This document shows positions 3,008 to 7,386 of a DNA stretch of 32,000 bases, one piece after another; the first letter of the stretch is position 1; every line of letters begins with the position of its first letter. The stretch is from Promethearchaeia archaeon (GTDB lineage: Archaea; Asgardarchaeota; Lokiarchaeia; Sigyniarchaeales; SOKP01): contig JAWOFX010000061.1 of the NCBI GenBank assembly GCA_046497275.1, positions 60,001 through 92,000 on the forward strand, written 5' to 3'. The notes under the pieces were generated by a model that saw only the letters and a program-made list of their open reading frames with translations, did no database searches and was not told where the DNA came from. A program made the translations under genes and the position numbers.

Positions 3008-3802
3008 ATGGTATCTTTTAGCAAAAAAACAAGAATTTTACAAATTGCTAATATTCTCATTCCAATCATTTGTTTTGCTATTTTAGGAGTACTATCTATA
3101 GGGCAAGGAAATTTTACTGATATTTTTGAATCTGGAGGGGCTGAGAGTCTTATCGATCCAATTGACTTTACATTTGCCATCTGGGGACCTATTTTTTTGT
3201 TTCTTATAATATTTCTGATTTATCAAGCGAGAGGCATACTAAAAAGTTCTGAAGAGAGATCTGAAATGGAATTTGTGGATCAAATAAGCATCTATTTCAT
3301 TCTTTCTACTATTATGACTTCTTTATGGTATATTTTCTGGATATATCAAATAATATGGTTATCTACCCTCTCTATGATTCTCTATCTAGTCTCTCTGGTT
3401 ATCGGATATTTAAGACTTAAAATCAACCTTATAGAACGTTCTAATATTGAAAAAGTAGTTATTTATATTCCGTGGAGTATGTATACAGCATGGATTACAG
3501 CAGCAACAATAGTTTCAATAACAACTTTCTTTGAAAGTATTGGATTCAATAATCCTGTTTTTCTTATATCCGATGCATACTGGGCAATTATTGTCCTATT
3601 AGTAGCTCTTGGTATTTATATTGGAGTTTTATTAACTCGAAATGATTATATTTTTGCTGGAGTAGGGATTTGGGTTCTATTGGGGATACTTTTTCAGCGA
3701 TTAATCTCTCCAGAATTTGTCATAGAAGTAGTTATTACCTCGATAATTGGAATAATAGTCTTATGTGTAGCGATTATTTACGAAGCTGTCAGGAAACACT
3801 AA
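3008..3802 (+). CDS. TspO/MBR-like (tryptophan-rich sensory protein family) multi-pass membrane protein
   Basis: About 8 hydrophobic segments; motifs PIDFTFAIWGPIF and PWSMYTAWITAAT resemble TspO-family P..F.IW and Y..W...AT motifs. Confidence 0.65.
   Translation: MVSFSKKTRILQIANILIPIICFAILGVLSIGQGNFTDIFESGGAESLIDPIDFTFAIWGPIFLFLIIFLIYQARGILKSSEERSEMEFVDQISIYFILSTIMTSLWYIFWIYQIIWLSTLSMILYLVSLVIGYLRLKINLIERSNIEKVVIYIPWSMYTAWITAATIVSITTFFESIGFNNPVFLISDAYWAIIVLLVALGIYIGVLLTRNDYIFAGVGIWVLLGILFQRLISPEFVIEVVITSIIGIIVLCVAIIYEAVRKH
3526..3802. repeat. 277-bp direct repeat, copy A (3' end of the TspO-like gene)
   Basis: Gapless alignment with 4134..4410 at offset 608; 9 mismatches counted by hand. 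Confidence 0.97.
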
Positions 3803-3955
3803 AATCCTAATATCTTTATTTTTTTCTATTTATTTAGAAATCTCAAAAGCAAAATTAAATTTAAAGTGAGAAATCTATATAAATAAAAAATTTTTAAATT
3901 TCATTTGATACATCCATTATATTATAATATGTTTTAAATTGTAAGAGCTAGAAAT

Positions 3956-4410
3956 ATGAGTCCAAGAAAAAAAAAGAAGAAACAAACCCAAATAAAAACA
4001 TGTCTATTATTAATTTTATTATTAGTATCTTCACTCGTTGCTATAATTGTTGCAAGGATATTCCTTCAAGGATAGTCGTAGAGAACAATTAATCCGAAAA
4101 TGATCCAGAGAAATTCACTCTTGGATCTTTATATTTCTTTGAAAGTATTGGATTCAATAATCCTGTTTTTCTTATATCCGATGCATATTGGGCAATTATT
4201 GTCCTATTAGTAGCCCTTGGTATTTATCTTGGAGTTTTATTAACTCGAAATGATTATATTTTTGCTGGAGTAGGGATTTGGGTCCTATTGGGGATACTTT
4301 TTCAGCGATTAATCTCTCCAGAATTTGTCATAGAAGGGGTTATTACCTCGATAATTGGAATAATAGTCTTATGCGTAGCGATTATTTACGAAGCTATCAG
4401 GAAACACTGA
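3956..4410 (+). pseudogene. Chimeric/broken gene: short basic + TM ORF (3956..4075) followed out of frame by the duplicated TspO-like C-terminus
   Basis: 3956..4075 encodes MSPRKKKKKQTQIKTCLLLILLLVSSLVAIIVARIFLQG*. A second frame is open 4093..4410 (SENDPEKFTLGSLYFFESIGFNNP...EAIRKH*) after a TAA at 4090 and has no ATG of its own. Confidence 0.6.
4134..4410. repeat. 277-bp direct repeat, copy B
   Basis: Matches 3526..3802 at 268/277 positions and ends at TGA where copy A has TAA. Confidence 0.97.
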
Positions 4411-4684
4411 AAAATTCATTATTATCCTATTTTTTCTTATTTTTCTAATTCTATTCCTGAATCTTCATTTATACATATAAAAATCAATACTTTGTTGATT
4501 TTATTATTATATTCTTCGACATTTGTCTTTTTCTAATTATTAAGATACAATCTATGTGAAAAAAAATAGTAAATATCATTGAAAATTTTTAAAAAAATAT
4601 AGTTTTTGATCTCTTTCAAATTTTTTTTTTATAAATACCTAAACTGTTTTTCTTTTTAAAAATATATCTAAATGTTTAAAATAT

Positions 4685-7378
4685 ATGAAATTAAAACATT
4701 TTCGGAAGTTCTTAAACCTTAATTTTGGACTTCAAGATATTATTTGCATATTTATTGGTATAATTGTAATTAGTTGTACTCTCTTTAGAGCTCCAAATTA
4801 CTTTATTTATTATTTCTTAGGGATAACATTGATAGTTTCAATAATATTTGAAAACGCGGTTCAAAAACTATTATTATTCAATATACCAATTTTCTATGTT
4901 ATTTCATATTTATTCGGGTTAACCTTAGAGAGTAATTATTTATTAAACATTTTCTCTAATAATTTATCGAACCCAATGTCATTTTTACAGTTATTAACAA
5001 TTTTAGTAATTATTGGTTTGATTATATTCTCAAGTAGCTTTATACCTATTATTTATCTAAAATGGAAGGATGATGAAAAGAAAAAAAGGCATCTATCTAA
5101 TATAATTAATTACACAATAATTATTCTTGGTCTTATCCAGGCAATTTTATTCTCAAAGAGCATTCAAACTGAAACTTTTTCCTTTTTATCCACATTTCCG
5201 GATGATTCTATTTCTATTTTTTTAGTAAATTTGAAATTTTTACTAAATGTCTATATTTCTTTTATGACCTTTTCACTGATATATTATGATTTGAGTGGAC
5301 TTTTTTTTCATCTAATTATCGGAGTTTTTTATTCTATAAATAAAATTAAATTCAAATTAGAAAAAAATCTTAGTAGTAAATCTAGTAATAATTTTAGGAG
5401 TGAATTATTTGATTTGAAAGAACCGAAAGAGGAAATATTCCTTCTGCAAAAAGATTGGGGTTTTTTAAATTGGGATCCACCTGGTACTCAAAATTCACAT
5501 CAAAATGCTATTAAGGCGGCAGCTAAATATTTTAAACAGAAAATTCTTAAAAATTTTAAAAATGAAAAAGACTTATTAATAAAAATTCCCACTACTATCG
5601 AATTAAAAAATAAAGGACATAATGATTTCTTAAATGCTATATATCGCCGAAAGATCTCTTATAATGCTATTTTAGTTGAATGTGGGTTCCAACCCAATCA
5701 AATGAAGGATAAATGGCATCTTTTTGATTGGAATAATAGTGGTAATCCAAGGTCGAAGAAAAAAGCTATAGAGAATGCAAGTAATTTTTTACTTCAAAAT
5801 ATAATGAATGAAAAATTCATAAATGAATTTGATTTAAGGGAACACCAATCTCCAACCCAAAAACAAATAGAAAAATATCATAAAGGTTATCTAAGTGCTA
5901 TTTACAAGAGAGATATAACTCTAACTGATGTTATTAAAATAACAAATCTAAAACATAATAAAAAAATTGGAAGATGGGATATGTTTAATTGGGGTAAAAA
6001 TGACAAACCCAGATCTAAATCTTCCGCATTAAAAAATGCAAGTAATTATTTAATGAATACTTTGTCCAAGATTGATGACTTAAATGAGTGTTTAACTGAA
6101 GAATACCTAAAAGAACTAGGCCATAATGATTTTATAAGTGCAATAGAATCTAGAAAATTATCTTATAATGATATTCTGAGAAAATCAGGATTAAAGACAA
6201 ACATATCAAAAGGAAAATGGAGTTTTCTCAATTGGAGTCAGAAAGGAATTCCTCGAACTAAGAAACAAGCTCTAGAAAATGCGGCAGAATATTTTTTAAA
6301 AAATATTATGAAGAAGAAAATAAAGATAAGTCTAGGATTAGAAGATTATGAAGCTCCTACGCGAGAAGAATTGTTTGACTTAGGATACCAAAAGTTTTTT
6401 TATGCGATCTATAATCAAAAATTGAGTTATAATGATATATTAAGAAAAGCGGGATTAAAGTTAAATCTATCAAAAAGAAAATGGAGTTTTCTCAATTGGA
6501 ATCAGAAAGGAATTCCTCGATCTAAAGAACAAGCTTTACAGAATGCAGCAGAATTTTTAAAAAATAATATTTTAACAAAAAATTTTAAGGAAAATTACAA
6601 TCTTAGTGATTCAGAGGCTCCTGTAACCAGTATAAATGATAAAATATTAAAAAATTTTTTATATAGAGGATTGTATCCAAGGGGTTTAACTTATAACGAA
6701 GTATTAGATATTGCGGGATTTCTTTTACATGAACAAAGTGTTTATGCTAAAATAGGTAGAATGATGCATTGGATTGCTGAACGCATTTTTCTTGAATATA
6801 CTAGAAATAATGGATGTCTTTCATTTTATGAAATTTATCCTAATAAATATGATAAAAAATACAATTCATTCCATTGCGATAATACTGTTTTAGTTAACGA
6901 AAGATTAAAAGATTTTTTTAAAAATCCTACAATATTAGACGAAAACATTAAAATGATTAATATTGATTATTTCTTAGGTGCATCAGAAAAAAGAATAAAA
7001 GCACATTGTCTTAAAGGATACCAAGGAAAATTTAAGTTATTAATTTTAGTCCCAATTAATTTGAAGGCTTCAAAATCACCTCCTATAAAAATTCCATACA
7101 AAAGAAATGTTAAAATAATGTCTCCTCTTGATTTTTCAAGATTTTTTGGATATCAAGAATCCTTCTGTAGTGAGTTTAAACAAATGGTCGAGATTGTTAA
7201 GAAGGCAACTTATAAGAAAAAGTTTCAAAATATTTTAGAGATTCAATCTAAAAAAAGCAGAAAGACAATTATTAGACATTATAATTTTGGACAAATACAG
7301 TTAGAGCAAGAATTAAAGGATTGTATTAACTTATTAAAGTATCATCCAGAAGGCTCCTCATTGGATTTTTATATATAG
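4685..7378 (+). CDS. 897-aa protein: N-terminal multi-TM domain, five ~85-aa tandem repeats, C-terminal putative PD-(D/E)XK-like nuclease domain
   Basis: About 6 hydrophobic segments in aa 1-220; five units starting W-x-F/L/M-x-x-W and ending around S/T-Y-N-x-I/V-L-x3-G (aa ~256-683); C-terminal G..H..AE / YE / CD / IDY / K.YQ pattern. Confidence 0.6.
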   Translation: MKLKHFRKFLNLNFGLQDIICIFIGIIVISCTLFRAPNYFIYYFLGITLIVSIIFENAVQKLLLFNIPIFYVISYLFGLTLESNYLLNIFSNNLSNPMSFLQLLTILVIIGLIIFSSSFIPIIYLKWKDDEKKKRHLSNIINYTIIILGLIQAILFSKSIQTETFSFLSTFPDDSISIFLVNLKFLLNVYISFMTFSLIYYDLSGLFFHLIIGVFYSINKIKFKLEKNLSSKSSNNFRSELFDLKEPKEEIFLLQKDWGFLNWDPPGTQNSHQNAIKAAAKYFKQKILKNFKNEKDLLIKIPTTIELKNKGHNDFLNAIYRRKISYNAILVECGFQPNQMKDKWHLFDWNNSGNPRSKKKAIENASNFLLQNIMNEKFINEFDLREHQSPTQKQIEKYHKGYLSAIYKRDITLTDVIKITNLKHNKKIGRWDMFNWGKNDKPRSKSSALKNASNYLMNTLSKIDDLNECLTEEYLKELGHNDFISAIESRKLSYNDILRKSGLKTNISKGKWSFLNWSQKGIPRTKKQALENAAEYFLKNIMKKKIKISLGLEDYEAPTREELFDLGYQKFFYAIYNQKLSYNDILRKAGLKLNLSKRKWSFLNWNQKGIPRSKEQALQNAAEFLKNNILTKNFKENYNLSDSEAPVTSINDKILKNFLYRGLYPRGLTYNEVLDIAGFLLHEQSVYAKIGRMMHWIAERIFLEYTRNNGCLSFYEIYPNKYDKKYNSFHCDNTVLVNERLKDFFKNPTILDENIKMINIDYFLGASEKRIKAHCLKGYQGKFKLLILVPINLKASKSPPIKIPYKRNVKIMSPLDFSRFFGYQESFCSEFKQMVEIVKKATYKKKFQNILEIQSKKSRKTIIRHYNFGQIQLEQELKDCINLLKYHPEGSSLDFYI
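5450..6733 (+). repeat. Intragenic tandem protein repeat, 5 units of 81-88 codons
   Basis: First Trp codons of the units at 5456, 5714, 5975, 6218 and 6482 (spacing 258, 261, 243, 264 nt); 6204..6261 and 6468..6525 match at 55/58 nt. Confidence 0.93.
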
Positions 7379-7386
7379 TTTGATAA

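What the first reader, a model, noticed from the sequence alone, without database searches (positions are those of the whole stretch)
4685..7378. Candidate membrane-tethered, repeat-array DNA nuclease (TM + 5 repeats + PD-(D/E)XK-like domain)
Seen in sequence: one uninterrupted 897-codon ORF with three parts: about six hydrophobic helices (aa ~1-220), a linker plus five tandem ~85-aa basic/aromatic units (aa ~256-683), and a ~214-aa C-terminal alpha/beta domain. Established: the unit core PT..EL...G...F..AI..R..SYN.IL..AGL recalls homing-endonuclease-associated repeats (PT..EY...G.......FGSWN.AL..AGL), which are thought to bind DNA. Membrane-anchored antiviral nucleases that cut DNA at entry are known in bacteria (E. 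coli PD-lambda-1/SNIPE, which uses a GIY-YIG domain). Inference: this is a membrane-anchored DNA-sensing nuclease, perhaps anti-virus/anti-plasmid defence at the membrane or chromosome-membrane tethering, with an architecture I do not recognise from any described archaeal system. It sits alone in a disturbed accessory block next to a fresh duplication.
Basis: partly seen in the sequence, partly recalled or inferred. Interest (0 to 1): 0.85.

Follow-up and report, generated by a model that had tools for sequence, protein, structure and literature searches.

The report
Membrane gene fused to repeat-array nuclease
The 897-codon gene is real, but it is a one-off in-frame fusion, in one Asgard archaeon, of a normally separate membrane-protein gene with a member of an uncharacterised family of tandem-repeat, restriction-enzyme-like nucleases; the family is the more interesting part.

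Summary
Window 4685-7378(+) is one open 897-codon frame with 6-7 hydrophobic helices (aa 1-~216), five tandem ~86-aa basic helical repeats (aa 255-683) and a 214-aa C-terminal domain.

The C-terminal domain models at pLDDT 95 as a PD-(D/E)XK (restriction-endonuclease-like) fold. Its conserved polar residues are all present in this copy.

The repeats plus nuclease belong to a family of about 120 cluster representatives. It was found in 59 of 400 genomes sampled from the phylum, 57 of them (this genome included) in this organism's own taxonomic family. It is often multi-copy or decayed, and always a lone gene among housekeeping genes.

None of 127 relatives carries the multi-pass membrane part. 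That part (aa 1-~245) matches, end to end, a rare stand-alone ~247-aa protein that elsewhere heads a cell-surface operon. The only AGGAG in the ORF sits 18 nt before an in-frame TTG at codon 244, which is where one gene call starts.

The closest congener has the flanking genes adjacent, without this ORF. A second assembly carries the identical fused frame.

Verdict: this is a chimeric gene. The nuclease fold is supported. The purpose-built "membrane-tethered defence nuclease" is possible but unproven and not a family trait. The link to HNH-associated repeats failed the Pfam test. The role (selfish or defence) is inferred.

The parts
4685..7378 (+). Whole 897-codon ORF (stop at 7376-7378), a chimera of two gene modules
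   Evidence: The identical ORF is in a second assembly, GCA_964385245.1.
4685..5413 (+). Module 1, aa 1-243: a complete 6-7-TM membrane protein, elsewhere a stand-alone ~247-aa gene
   Evidence: phmmer matches aa 5-236 to P0045 (247 aa, 40% identity, E 1e-42) and P0060 (249 aa, E 2e-29). The alignment runs end to end, including the Lys/Ser-rich tail.
5396..5416 (+). AGGAGTG (5396-5402), Shine-Dalgarno-like, plus the in-frame TTG at 5414 (codon 244): probable relic or alternative start of the nuclease gene
   Evidence: It is the only AGGAG in the ORF, and TTG 5414 is the only in-frame start codon between codons 204 and 300. SD-like motifs are 4-10-fold enriched upstream of starts in this genome. 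A database gene call (P0002, 654 aa) starts here.
5447..6733 (+). Five tandem ~86-aa basic helical repeats (nt 5447-5701, 5705-5962, 5966-6205, 6209-6469, 6473-6733)
   Evidence: AF2 model of one unit: four helices, pLDDT 88. No known fold match.
6734..7375 (+). C-terminal PD-(D/E)XK-fold nuclease domain (aa 684-897)
   Evidence: AF2 pLDDT 95.4, pTM 0.85. Structural neighbours are nearly all restriction-endonuclease-fold proteins.
6767..7036 (+). Conserved putative active-site residues: H695, E699 (helix 1); E716 (strand 1); D732 (strand 2); D761 (strand 3); K777-G-Y779-Q780; K784 (strand 4)
   Evidence: Conservation over 69 family domains: H 66/69, E699 60/69, E716 66/69, D732 68/69, D/E761 69/69, R/K777 69/69, Y779 68/69, Q780 61/69, K/R784 63/69. 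All are present in the window copy.
4620..7386 (.). Approximate extent of DNA present here but absent between the same flanking genes in the closest congener (G002)
   Evidence: In G002 the 264-aa membrane-protein gene, a small ORF and hypA lie within about 360 bp. The window has 3.66 kb between the collinear blocks. HypA is intact in both.
3526..4620 (+). Tandem ~608-bp duplication just upstream (copy 1 at 3526-4133; copy 2 at 4134-~4620, decayed after 4433)
   Evidence: Four of the five differences between the two assemblies fall in copy 2.

Best explanation
The ORF is a chimera of two formerly separate genes.

Codons 1-~245 are a complete copy of a rare multi-pass membrane protein. In other Lokiarchaeota-type genomes it is a stand-alone ~247-aa gene, followed 2 nt later by secreted or surface-protein genes.

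Codons ~244-897 are a member of an uncharacterised accessory family confined almost entirely to this organism's taxonomic family of Asgard archaea. Members have a variable N-terminal region, 1-6 tandem ~86-aa basic four-helix repeats, and a C-terminal PD-(D/E)XK-fold nuclease domain.

The likely mechanism of the soluble module is inferred. The basic repeat array binds nucleic acid, most likely DNA, and positions a metal-dependent endonuclease. Its acidic residues are E716, D732 and D761. The usual strand-3 lysine is missing and is probably replaced by R/K777 or K784.

The family's biology looks like that of a lone selfish (homing-endonuclease-like) gene or an innate-defence nuclease. It is patchy, often multi-copy, frequently decayed, and a single-gene presence/absence difference between conserved housekeeping genes.

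In this lineage the nuclease gene came to lie directly behind the membrane-protein gene, and the stop codon between them was lost. The long frame now encodes a membrane-anchored form, probably with a cytoplasmic nuclease. The retained AGGAG-TTG(244) may still yield the free 654-aa protein.

Shown: the anatomy, the fold, residue conservation, the distribution, the chimeric origin, and reproducibility of the frame in two assemblies. Inferred: catalysis, DNA binding, the selfish or defence role, the stop-loss route, and which product or products are actually made.
For: Chimeric origin:
- Exhaustive phmmer finds 125 proteins. The repeat and nuclease parts hit about 120. The TM part hits only two stand-alone proteins of 247 and 249 aa.
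- The three TM proteins align end to end, and the stand-alone ones stop at the equivalent of aa ~246-250.
- In three other genomes or contigs the TM gene is followed 2 nt later by the same unrelated surface-protein genes. These genes were not found in the own genome.
- The TM gene was found in 2 of 400 genomes of the phylum.
- No relative has a multi-TM N-terminus.
- The single AGGAG and the sole in-frame start codon sit at the module boundary, and SD motifs are used in this genome.

Nuclease:
- AF2 gives pLDDT 95.4 with an alpha-beta-beta-beta-alpha-beta core.
- VIA-align neighbours: Can2 Z 6.2 (rmsd 3.1, 115 aligned), AF1548 Z 6.1, Can1 Z 6.1, R2 RLE Z 5.8, McrC Z 5.4, then type II restriction enzymes.
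- Foldseek against PDB, AFDB and the Atlas gives the same fold class.
- The conserved residues are intact in this copy.

Accessory, mobile-like behaviour:
- 59 of 400 genomes have a match, 57 of them in family f1 (G000 included). Many matches carry internal stops or are short fragments.
- By whole-protein search no close copy was found in the six congeners. By the domain profile only G002 has two weak, diverged matches.
- The ORF is a single-gene indel against G002.
- Homologues are lone genes among housekeeping genes.

Reality of the frame:
- The identical ORF is present in the second assembly, with 5 differences in 13.4 kb.
- The soluble part carries a net charge of about +44.
Against: - Structural Z-scores are modest (about 6 at most). 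The tool notes that Z under 8 can reflect only a common arrangement, so the call rests on the consistency of the hit list plus the motif pattern, not on one strong match.
- The canonical (D/E)xK lysine is absent from strand 3 (D761-Y-F), so activity is not assured.
- The repeat unit has no fold or family match, so DNA binding is inferred only from charge, from the domain context, and from paralogues that carry Zn-finger arrays in the same position.
- No target site, terminal repeats or target duplication define a mobile unit. No family member was found in viral contigs.
- The two assemblies may derive from the same reads, so a shared base-calling error near the junction is not excluded. An A7 run lies at 5361-5367, and read-level checking was unavailable.
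- The TM module is fully intact. That is also what a selected, functional fusion would look like.
Confidence: 0.6

Rival explanations
1. One reading: this is a purpose-built membrane-anchored DNA nuclease that works like SNIPE. The TM domain holds a promiscuous nuclease at the membrane, away from the chromosome, so that it cuts incoming viral or plasmid DNA. The fusion is adaptive and the 897-aa protein is the functional product.
For: - The fused frame is open over 897 codons and identical in two assemblies.
- The TM module shows no decay.
- Positive charge clusters at the N-terminus (+4), the 126-139 loop (+3 net, 6 K/R) and the post-TM tail fit an N-in/C-in topology with the nuclease in the cytoplasm.
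- SNIPE shows that a TM anchor can prevent self-cleavage by a DNA-binding nuclease, and its homologues also have very variable N-termini (PMC13190303).
- One distant family member (P0129) independently carries a single-pass N-terminal TM helix.
Against: - None of the other relatives has the multi-TM domain.
- The anchor is a whole, otherwise independent gene with its own operon partners.
- A start signal for the soluble protein is retained at the junction.
- There is no hit to any PADLOC defence model.
- The neighbours are proteasome, JAB, HypA and SRP19 genes, not a defence island.
- There is no DUF4041 or GIY-YIG.
- Topology was judged only by hand. Seven hydrophobic peaks could instead put the C-terminus outside the cell.
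Confidence: 0.2
2. There are really two genes. The membrane protein and the nuclease are made as separate polypeptides. Either a 1-nt error shared by the assemblies hides the stop codon, or translation of the nuclease starts at TTG-244 and the read-through product is negligible.
For: - One gene call for this locus starts at codon 244 (P0002, 654 aa).
- AGGAGTG lies 18 nt upstream of that TTG and is the only AGGAG in the ORF.
- Both alternative frames stop just before the TTG. In the +1 frame the stop is TGA at 5410-5412, 1 nt before it. This mimics the 2-nt gene junctions seen after the TM gene elsewhere.
- Homopolymers A7 and T8 lie just upstream.
Against: - The frame-0 tail (KLEKNLSSKSS...) aligns with the Lys/Ser-rich tails of the stand-alone homologues up to about aa 235, so any frameshift would have to fall in a stretch of about 25 nt.
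- Two assemblies with different accessions agree base for base across the ORF.
- The other assembly's annotation calls the 897-aa form.
- The SD spacing (AGGAG starting at -18) is at the far edge of the range used in this genome.
Confidence: 0.2
3. The C-terminal domain is a catalytically dead restriction-endonuclease-like fold, and the repeats are a protein-binding scaffold. The family would then act as a structural or regulatory factor and not cut DNA.
For: - The strand-3 lysine of the classical motif is missing.
- Inactive PD-(D/E)XK-fold domains occur among the structural neighbours, for example TIP26 and the YqgP N-terminal domain.
- The repeat fold matches nothing that binds DNA.
Against: - Three acidic residues on adjacent strands, plus H, E, R/K, Y, Q and K, are conserved at 87-100% over 69 diverged sequences. 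That level of conservation is typical of an active site.
- The module is strongly basic.
- Relatives carry Myb, HTH, HhH and Zn-ribbon modules.
- A patchy distribution with frequent pseudogenes fits a selfish or defence nuclease better than a housekeeping scaffold.
Confidence: 0.1

Closest known systems
PD-(D/E)XK (restriction-endonuclease-like) nucleases, e.g. the nuclease domains of Can2/Card1/Can1, McrC, MspJI, the RLE domain of R2 retrotransposons, and type II enzymes such as Eco47II and EcoO109I
   Same: The alpha-beta-beta-beta-alpha-beta core is shared. A Glu lies in the first helix, acidic residues lie on strands 2 and 3, and basic residues are nearby. The domain is C-terminal to a variable recognition region.
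   Different: There is no sequence-level match to any Pfam, NCBIfam or PDB entry. Strand 3 reads D-Y-(F/Y) in place of (D/E)-x-K. A conserved (K/H)-C-x-(R/K)-G-Y-Q loop and an extra conserved Glu on strand 1 are present. No cyclic-nucleotide sensor, methylase or GTPase partner accompanies it.
SNIPE / PD-lambda-1 (E. coli membrane-bound anti-phage nuclease; Nature 2026, PMC13190303)
   Same: In this one copy the layout is alike: an N-terminal membrane anchor, a basic putative DNA-binding middle region and a C-terminal nuclease. In both families the N-terminal regions vary greatly between homologues.
   Different: SNIPE has a single-pass TM, DUF4041 and a GIY-YIG nuclease. Here the anchor is a 6-7-TM whole-gene fusion, the middle is a novel repeat array, and the nuclease has a PD-(D/E)XK fold. 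In SNIPE 59% of homologues have one predicted TM domain and 7% two, against 1 of 127 here. No PADLOC hit was found.
Free-standing homing endonucleases with modular DNA-binding extensions (I-TevI or I-HmuI type), and haloarchaeal HNH enzymes carrying the 'homing endonuclease associated repeat' (Pfam PF18780)
   Same: A nuclease is joined to tandem small helical modules. The distribution is sporadic, copies are often decayed, and the gene is a single-gene indel between conserved genes. The second half of the repeat shows a loose pattern resemblance (P-T ... Y-N-x-I-L-x-x-A-G-L).
   Different: The nuclease class differs. PF18780 does not match above threshold: best E 0.0066 in 2 of 140 units, and no hit in the own genome or in five family-bearing genomes. 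No homing site or intron/intein context was shown.
Own-genome paralogues on contigs C141 and C71 (about 690 aa), and the AFDB 'treble clef zinc finger domain-containing protein' A0A6M1ZJ69
   Same: They have the same C-terminal nuclease motifs (H-x-I-x-E, E, D, I-D-F, K-N-Y-Q) and one or two half-repeats of the same type.
   Different: Most of the repeat array is replaced by tandem Cys/His treble-clef zinc-finger modules, and there is no TM part.

Membership tests
PD-(D/E)XK / restriction-endonuclease-like fold superfamily | Four-stranded mixed sheet flanked by helices (alpha-beta-beta-beta-alpha-beta core) | tested here: met
   The AF2 model (pLDDT 95.4) has H88-113, E117-122, E136-141, E162-168, H173-180 and E189-195. 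The top 50 VIA-align hits are almost all from this fold, with Z up to 6.2. Foldseek against PDB, AFDB and the Atlas agrees.
PD-(D/E)XK / restriction-endonuclease-like fold superfamily | Conserved acidic residues at the start of strand 2 and in strand 3 | tested here: met
   D732 is conserved in 68/69 and D/E761 in 69/69. E716 (66/69) and E699 (60/69) add to them. All are present in the window copy.
PD-(D/E)XK / restriction-endonuclease-like fold superfamily | Lysine two residues after the strand-3 acid ((D/E)-x-K) | tested here: not met
   Strand 3 reads N-I-D761-Y-F. The x+2 position has no conserved residue in the family and is Phe, not Lys, in the window copy. Conserved R/K777 and K/R784 are candidate substitutes, as in known variant families (from general knowledge, not tested).
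PD-(D/E)XK / restriction-endonuclease-like fold superfamily | Divalent-metal-dependent phosphodiester cleavage | not testable with these tools
   This needs biochemistry.
Pfam PF18780 HNH_repeat (homing endonuclease associated repeat) | Match to the family HMM at or above the gathering score (26 bits) | tested here: not met
   P0001 gives no hit at E up to 10. Of 140 repeat units, 2 match, best E 0.0066. P0004 scores 16.7 bits. There is no match in the own genome or in five family-bearing genomes. Remote homology was not tested by profile-profile comparison.
SNIPE / PD-lambda-1 | DUF4041 domain plus a GIY-YIG nuclease domain | tested here: not met
   No Pfam hit to either. The nuclease domain has a PD-(D/E)XK fold. 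No PADLOC model matches. The SNIPE architecture is taken from PMC13190303.
SNIPE / PD-lambda-1 | N-terminal transmembrane anchor with a cytoplasmic nuclease | tested here: inconclusive
   The window copy has 6-7 hydrophobic helices. Charge distribution favours a cytoplasmic C-terminal part. No topology predictor or experiment was available, and the anchor is absent from the other family members apart from a single-pass helix in P0129.
Free-standing homing endonuclease gene | Presence/absence polymorphism at a conserved locus, with sporadic distribution and decay | tested here: met
   G002 has the flanking genes adjacent without the ORF. The family is in 59 of 400 genomes, with many copies carrying stops or reduced to fragments.
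Free-standing homing endonuclease gene | The enzyme cleaves the empty allele of its own insertion site | not testable with these tools
   This needs a cleavage assay on the G002-type intergenic sequence.
Insertion sequence / transposon | Terminal inverted repeats and a target-site duplication bracketing the gene, with near-identical copies in the genome | tested here: not met
   No inverted or direct repeat brackets ~4620-7386. This subfamily has a single copy in the genome.

The most novel reading that the evidence does not exclude
The family could be a natural modular repeat-array nuclease, loosely comparable to a TALE-nuclease. Each ~86-aa unit would contact a short stretch of DNA, so that repeat number and sequence set the target. 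In this genome the enzyme would have been captured behind a multi-pass membrane protein to give an archaeal functional analogue of SNIPE, cutting invading DNA at the membrane while sparing the chromosome.
Probability: 0.1. Interest if true: 0.8.

Novelty: new variant of a known kind. Interest (0 to 1): 0.45.

Why it matters
- It defines an unannotated protein family with no Pfam, NCBIfam, PADLOC or PHROG model. The family is specific to one family of Asgard archaea and joins a previously unclassified tandem helical repeat to a variant restriction-endonuclease-like nuclease.
- If the repeats read DNA, the family would be a new kind of modular DNA-recognition array. [quoted passage not shown]
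- The window copy is a clean, datable example of gene fusion by loss of a stop codon. It happens to recreate the layout of a recently described bacterial membrane-bound anti-phage nuclease, so it offers a natural test of whether tethering alone changes what such a nuclease does.
- For annotation: the two assemblies call this locus differently (654 aa against 897 aa), and the reason is now clear.

Tried and rejected
- **Sequence searches.** Pfam, NCBIfam and PDB sequence searches of the whole protein and of each part gave nothing significant. Profile searches of PDB with the domain and repeat alignments gave only noise.
- **TM part.** The ESM Atlas feature search of the TM part gave no usable hit.
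- **Defence and virus libraries.** PADLOC and PHROGs gave no hits for eight family members. IMG/VR viral contigs held no relative (the scan is pattern-limited).
- **Repeat fold.** The best PDB match was Z 4.8, and the only AFDB match was a family member. No fold was assigned.
- **HNH_repeat link.** It failed the HMM test. PF26683, which appears as a faint precomputed hit on two homologues, is not in the searchable library.
- **Host-gene capture idea.** I tested whether family members routinely capture host genes at their N-terminus. Scans of 20 N-terminal regions, each on its own, found only short partial hits (a 55-aa RhaA-like stretch, HTH, Zn-ribbon), and no match was found in 16 of the 20. 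An aspartyl-protease domain occurs in P0006 and P0007, and a Myb domain and two TopoV HHH matches came up in the pooled scan of 54 N-terminal regions. Rejected as a general pattern.
- **Native locus of the TM gene.** The idea that it sits near its native locus was rejected. The orthologues of its usual upstream neighbours are on another contig (C13) with unrelated genes downstream.
- **IS element.** No terminal repeats or target duplication were found.
Full report
**1. Observation**

Window 4685-7378(+) is a single 897-codon ORF. The region is about 26% G+C, and stops are expected at about 0.093 per codon. An open frame of 897 codons has P of about 1e-38, and the first 243 codons alone about 5e-11. 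Both parts are therefore real coding sequence in one frame.

Hydropathy shows 6-7 membrane-length hydrophobic segments within aa 9-216. Five tandem units follow, each opening with W-x-(F/L/M)-(F/L)-(N/D)-W. They lie at aa 255-339, 341-426, 428-507, 509-595 and 597-683. Each is net basic, +2 to +8. Units 4 and 5 are still 80% identical in DNA. The last 214 residues form a separate domain.

**2. The C-terminal domain**

No Pfam, NCBIfam or PDB sequence match exists for any part of the protein. I aligned 69 family sequences covering the last repeat plus the C-terminal domain (A2). AlphaFold2 then gave a very confident model: mean pLDDT 95.4, pTM 0.85. It has a long helix, three strands, a helix and a fourth strand.

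- Foldseek against PDB found only weak hits (best E 0.028). Most are restriction-endonuclease-fold nucleases: MspJI, Can2, R2 RLE, HindIII, EcoT38I, Avs3, McrC, NucC and Bax1.
- The Foldseek-independent VIA-align scan of 48,161 chains gave Can2 at Z 6.2 (rmsd 3.1, 115 aligned), AF1548 at 6.1, Can1 at 6.1, R2 at 5.8 and McrC at 5.4. A long list of type II enzymes followed, all over model residues ~88-230.
- AFDB clusters and the ESM Atlas added 'Restriction endonuclease', NERD, DUF559, Mrr, Eco47II, Card1 endonuclease and PDDEXK_4.

The Z-scores are modest. It is the uniformity of the list and the motif pattern that make the fold assignment secure.

Across the 69 sequences the conserved polar positions are as follows:

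| Residue | Location | Conservation |
|---|---|---|
| H695 | helix 1 | 66/69 |
| E699 | helix 1 | 60/69 |
| E716 | strand 1 | 66/69 |
| D732 | strand 2 | 68/69 |
| D/E761 | strand 3 | 69/69 |
| R/K777 | after helix 2 | 69/69 |
| Y779 | after helix 2 | 68/69 |
| Q780 | after helix 2 | 61/69 |
| K/R784 | strand 4 | 63/69 |

All are present in the window copy. The classical strand-3 lysine is absent (D-Y-F), so this is a variant active site. Catalysis is inferred, not shown.

**3. The repeats**

A profile built from the five units finds 275 units in the family, at 1-6 per protein. A model of one unit from 140 sequences gives four helices behind a Trp-rich N-terminal cap (pLDDT 88).

The unit matches no solved or predicted fold. 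The best PDB Z is 4.8, and the only AFDB hit is a family member.

The proposed kinship with the Pfam 'homing endonuclease associated repeat' (PF18780) did not pass:
- P0001 gives no hit even at E of 10.
- 2 of 140 units match, best E 0.0066.
- There is no match in the own genome or in five family-bearing genomes.

A faint precomputed hit to Tyr_recomb_halo_N on two homologues keeps remote homology open.

Nucleic-acid binding is inferred from three things:
- The soluble part carries a net charge of about +44.
- The array sits in front of a nuclease.
- Relatives carry Myb, HTH, HhH or Zn-ribbon modules. Two own-genome paralogues (contigs C141 and C71) carry tandem treble-clef zinc fingers where most of the repeats would be, with the same nuclease motifs.

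**4. The family**

The word-indexed search found 8 relatives and the exhaustive phmmer search 125. Of these, 68 have a full-length nuclease domain, nearly always C-terminal. N-terminal regions are very diverse and mostly unannotated, with an aspartyl-protease domain in P0006 and P0007.

In 400 genomes sampled from the phylum the nuclease domain is found in 59, of which 57 (G000 included) are in this organism's own taxonomic family. That is 56 of the 134 other genomes sampled there. It is often present in 2-4 copies, and many copies carry internal stops or are short fragments. By whole-protein search none of the six congeners has a close copy. By the domain profile only G002 has two weak, diverged matches.

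Homologues are solitary genes among housekeeping genes: MutS/MutL and EF-1, TPP enzymes, Elp3 and GatDE, acetyl-CoA synthetase. One lies beside a group II intron reverse transcriptase. There is no conserved partner and no methylase.

No PADLOC or PHROG model hits, and nothing was found in IMG/VR. The genome encodes several strong actin homologues (up to 444 bits). A homologue of the TM gene comes from a record annotated as a Lokiarchaeota MAG. Both fit an Asgard archaeon.

**5. The membrane part is a separate gene that has been fused**

The only proteins matching aa 5-236 are two stand-alone proteins of 247 and 249 aa, at 40% and 37% identity with E 1e-42 and 2e-29. A third stand-alone copy of 246 aa was found in genome G261.

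The alignment runs from Met1 through the Lys/Ser-rich tail. The stand-alone proteins end at the equivalent of aa ~246-250. That is where the first repeat's leader begins.

In all three other contexts the TM gene is followed 2 nt later by the same secreted protein and then a large surface protein. Neither partner was found in the own genome. The orthologues of the usual upstream neighbours sit on a different contig with unrelated genes downstream.

None of the 127 relatives has a multi-TM N-terminus. One distant member (P0129) has its own single-pass helix.

At the junction the ORF contains its only AGGAG, at 5396. It lies 18 nt upstream of the only in-frame start codon between codons 204 and 300, TTG at 5414. 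SD-like motifs are 4-10-fold enriched upstream of starts in this genome. One database gene call begins at that TTG (654 aa), while another assembly's call is the full 897 aa.

The simplest history is that the nuclease gene came to lie directly behind the TM gene and the intervening stop was lost.

**6. Locus history**

In the closest congener (G002) three genes lie within about 360 bp: the upstream 264-aa membrane-protein gene, a small ~40-codon membrane ORF, and hypA. The window has 3.66 kb between the same collinear blocks. HypA is intact in both.

The extra DNA has two components:
- A tandem ~608-bp duplication of the 3' end of the 264-aa gene plus the small ORF. The copies are 93% identical over 300 nt, and copy 2 is decayed.
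- About 2.8 kb that is essentially the fused ORF with about 65 bp of upstream sequence.

No inverted repeats or target duplication bracket it. The ORF is therefore a lineage-specific single-gene insertion, or a loss in G002, at a housekeeping locus. It is not part of a defence island.

**7. Is the fused frame real?**

A second NCBI assembly, GCA_964385245.1 (61-kb contig), carries the same locus with 5 differences in 13.4 kb. None is in the ORF. This argues against a random assembly error, although the two assemblies may share reads. An A7 run at 5361-5367 and stops in both alternative frames just before TTG-244 keep the two-gene alternative alive.

**8. Interpretation**

The best-supported reading is a chimeric gene. 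The informative part is a new, Asgard-family-restricted repeat-array PD-(D/E)XK nuclease with the population behaviour of a selfish or defence gene. The membrane anchor is a one-off acquisition.

Charge distribution suggests both ends of the TM module face the cytoplasm: N-terminus +4, the 126-139 loop with 6 K/R, the 159-177 loop at -3, and a basic tail. The nuclease would then be cytoplasmic and tethered. That resembles SNIPE in layout only (PMC13190303); none of SNIPE's defining domains is present.

Whether the tether is used, tolerated or bypassed through TTG-244 cannot be decided from sequence.

**9. Scores**

The anatomy is confirmed and the nuclease fold is supported. I rate this a new variant of a known kind: a variant PD-(D/E)XK nuclease with an unclassified repeat array, once fused to a membrane protein. 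Interest is moderate.

Noticed in passing
window 3526-4620: There is a tandem ~608-bp duplication of the 3' end of the 264-aa membrane-protein gene plus the downstream small ORF. The copies are 93% identical over 300 nt, and copy 2 is decayed with a ~123-bp deletion. Four of the five differences between the two assemblies of this locus fall in copy 2, which suggests assembly collapse or gene conversion between the copies.
   Followed up: partly
window 3956-4075: A 39-codon ORF has a Lys-rich N-terminus followed by one hydrophobic helix. A homologous ~40-codon ORF lies at the same place in congener G002 (L029, about 2483-2605), so this is probably a real, conserved micro-membrane-protein gene.
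   Followed up: partly
G000 contigs C141:783-2852 and C71:29962-32034: Two ~690-aa paralogues combine one or two half-repeats of the same type, several tandem Cys/His treble-clef zinc-finger modules, and a diverged copy of the same nuclease domain. A decayed fragment lies on C186.
   Followed up: partly
L007:6272-10225; L008; L043:1-2208: In other Lokiarchaeota-type genomes there is a conserved operon: the 247-aa multi-TM protein, then 2 nt later a ~345-aa secreted protein rich in N-x-S/T sites, then a ~720-aa surface protein with terminal anchors. The function is unknown, and the TM gene was found in only 2 of 400 genomes of the phylum.
   Followed up: partly
P0006 and P0007 (L003:8001-10286): These family members have an N-terminal retropepsin-like aspartyl-protease domain (PF13650, E 5e-5) ahead of an HTH-like module, three repeats and the nuclease. 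This domain combination is unusual.
   Followed up: no
L047:633-5589: Family member P0021 (1051 aa) lies 300 bp downstream of a group II intron reverse transcriptase/maturase gene.
   Followed up: no
P0129: This distant family member has a genuine single-pass N-terminal TM helix (aa ~41-60, followed by KRRK). It then carries seven or so ~55-aa 'W-x-x-L-Y/F-E-K-Y/H-G' helical repeats in place of the 86-aa units, then the nuclease domain.
   Followed up: no
window 6154-6589: Repeat units 4 and 5 share 80% nucleotide identity over 172 nt, against about 61% for older units. This points to a recent unit duplication inside the array.
   Followed up: partly
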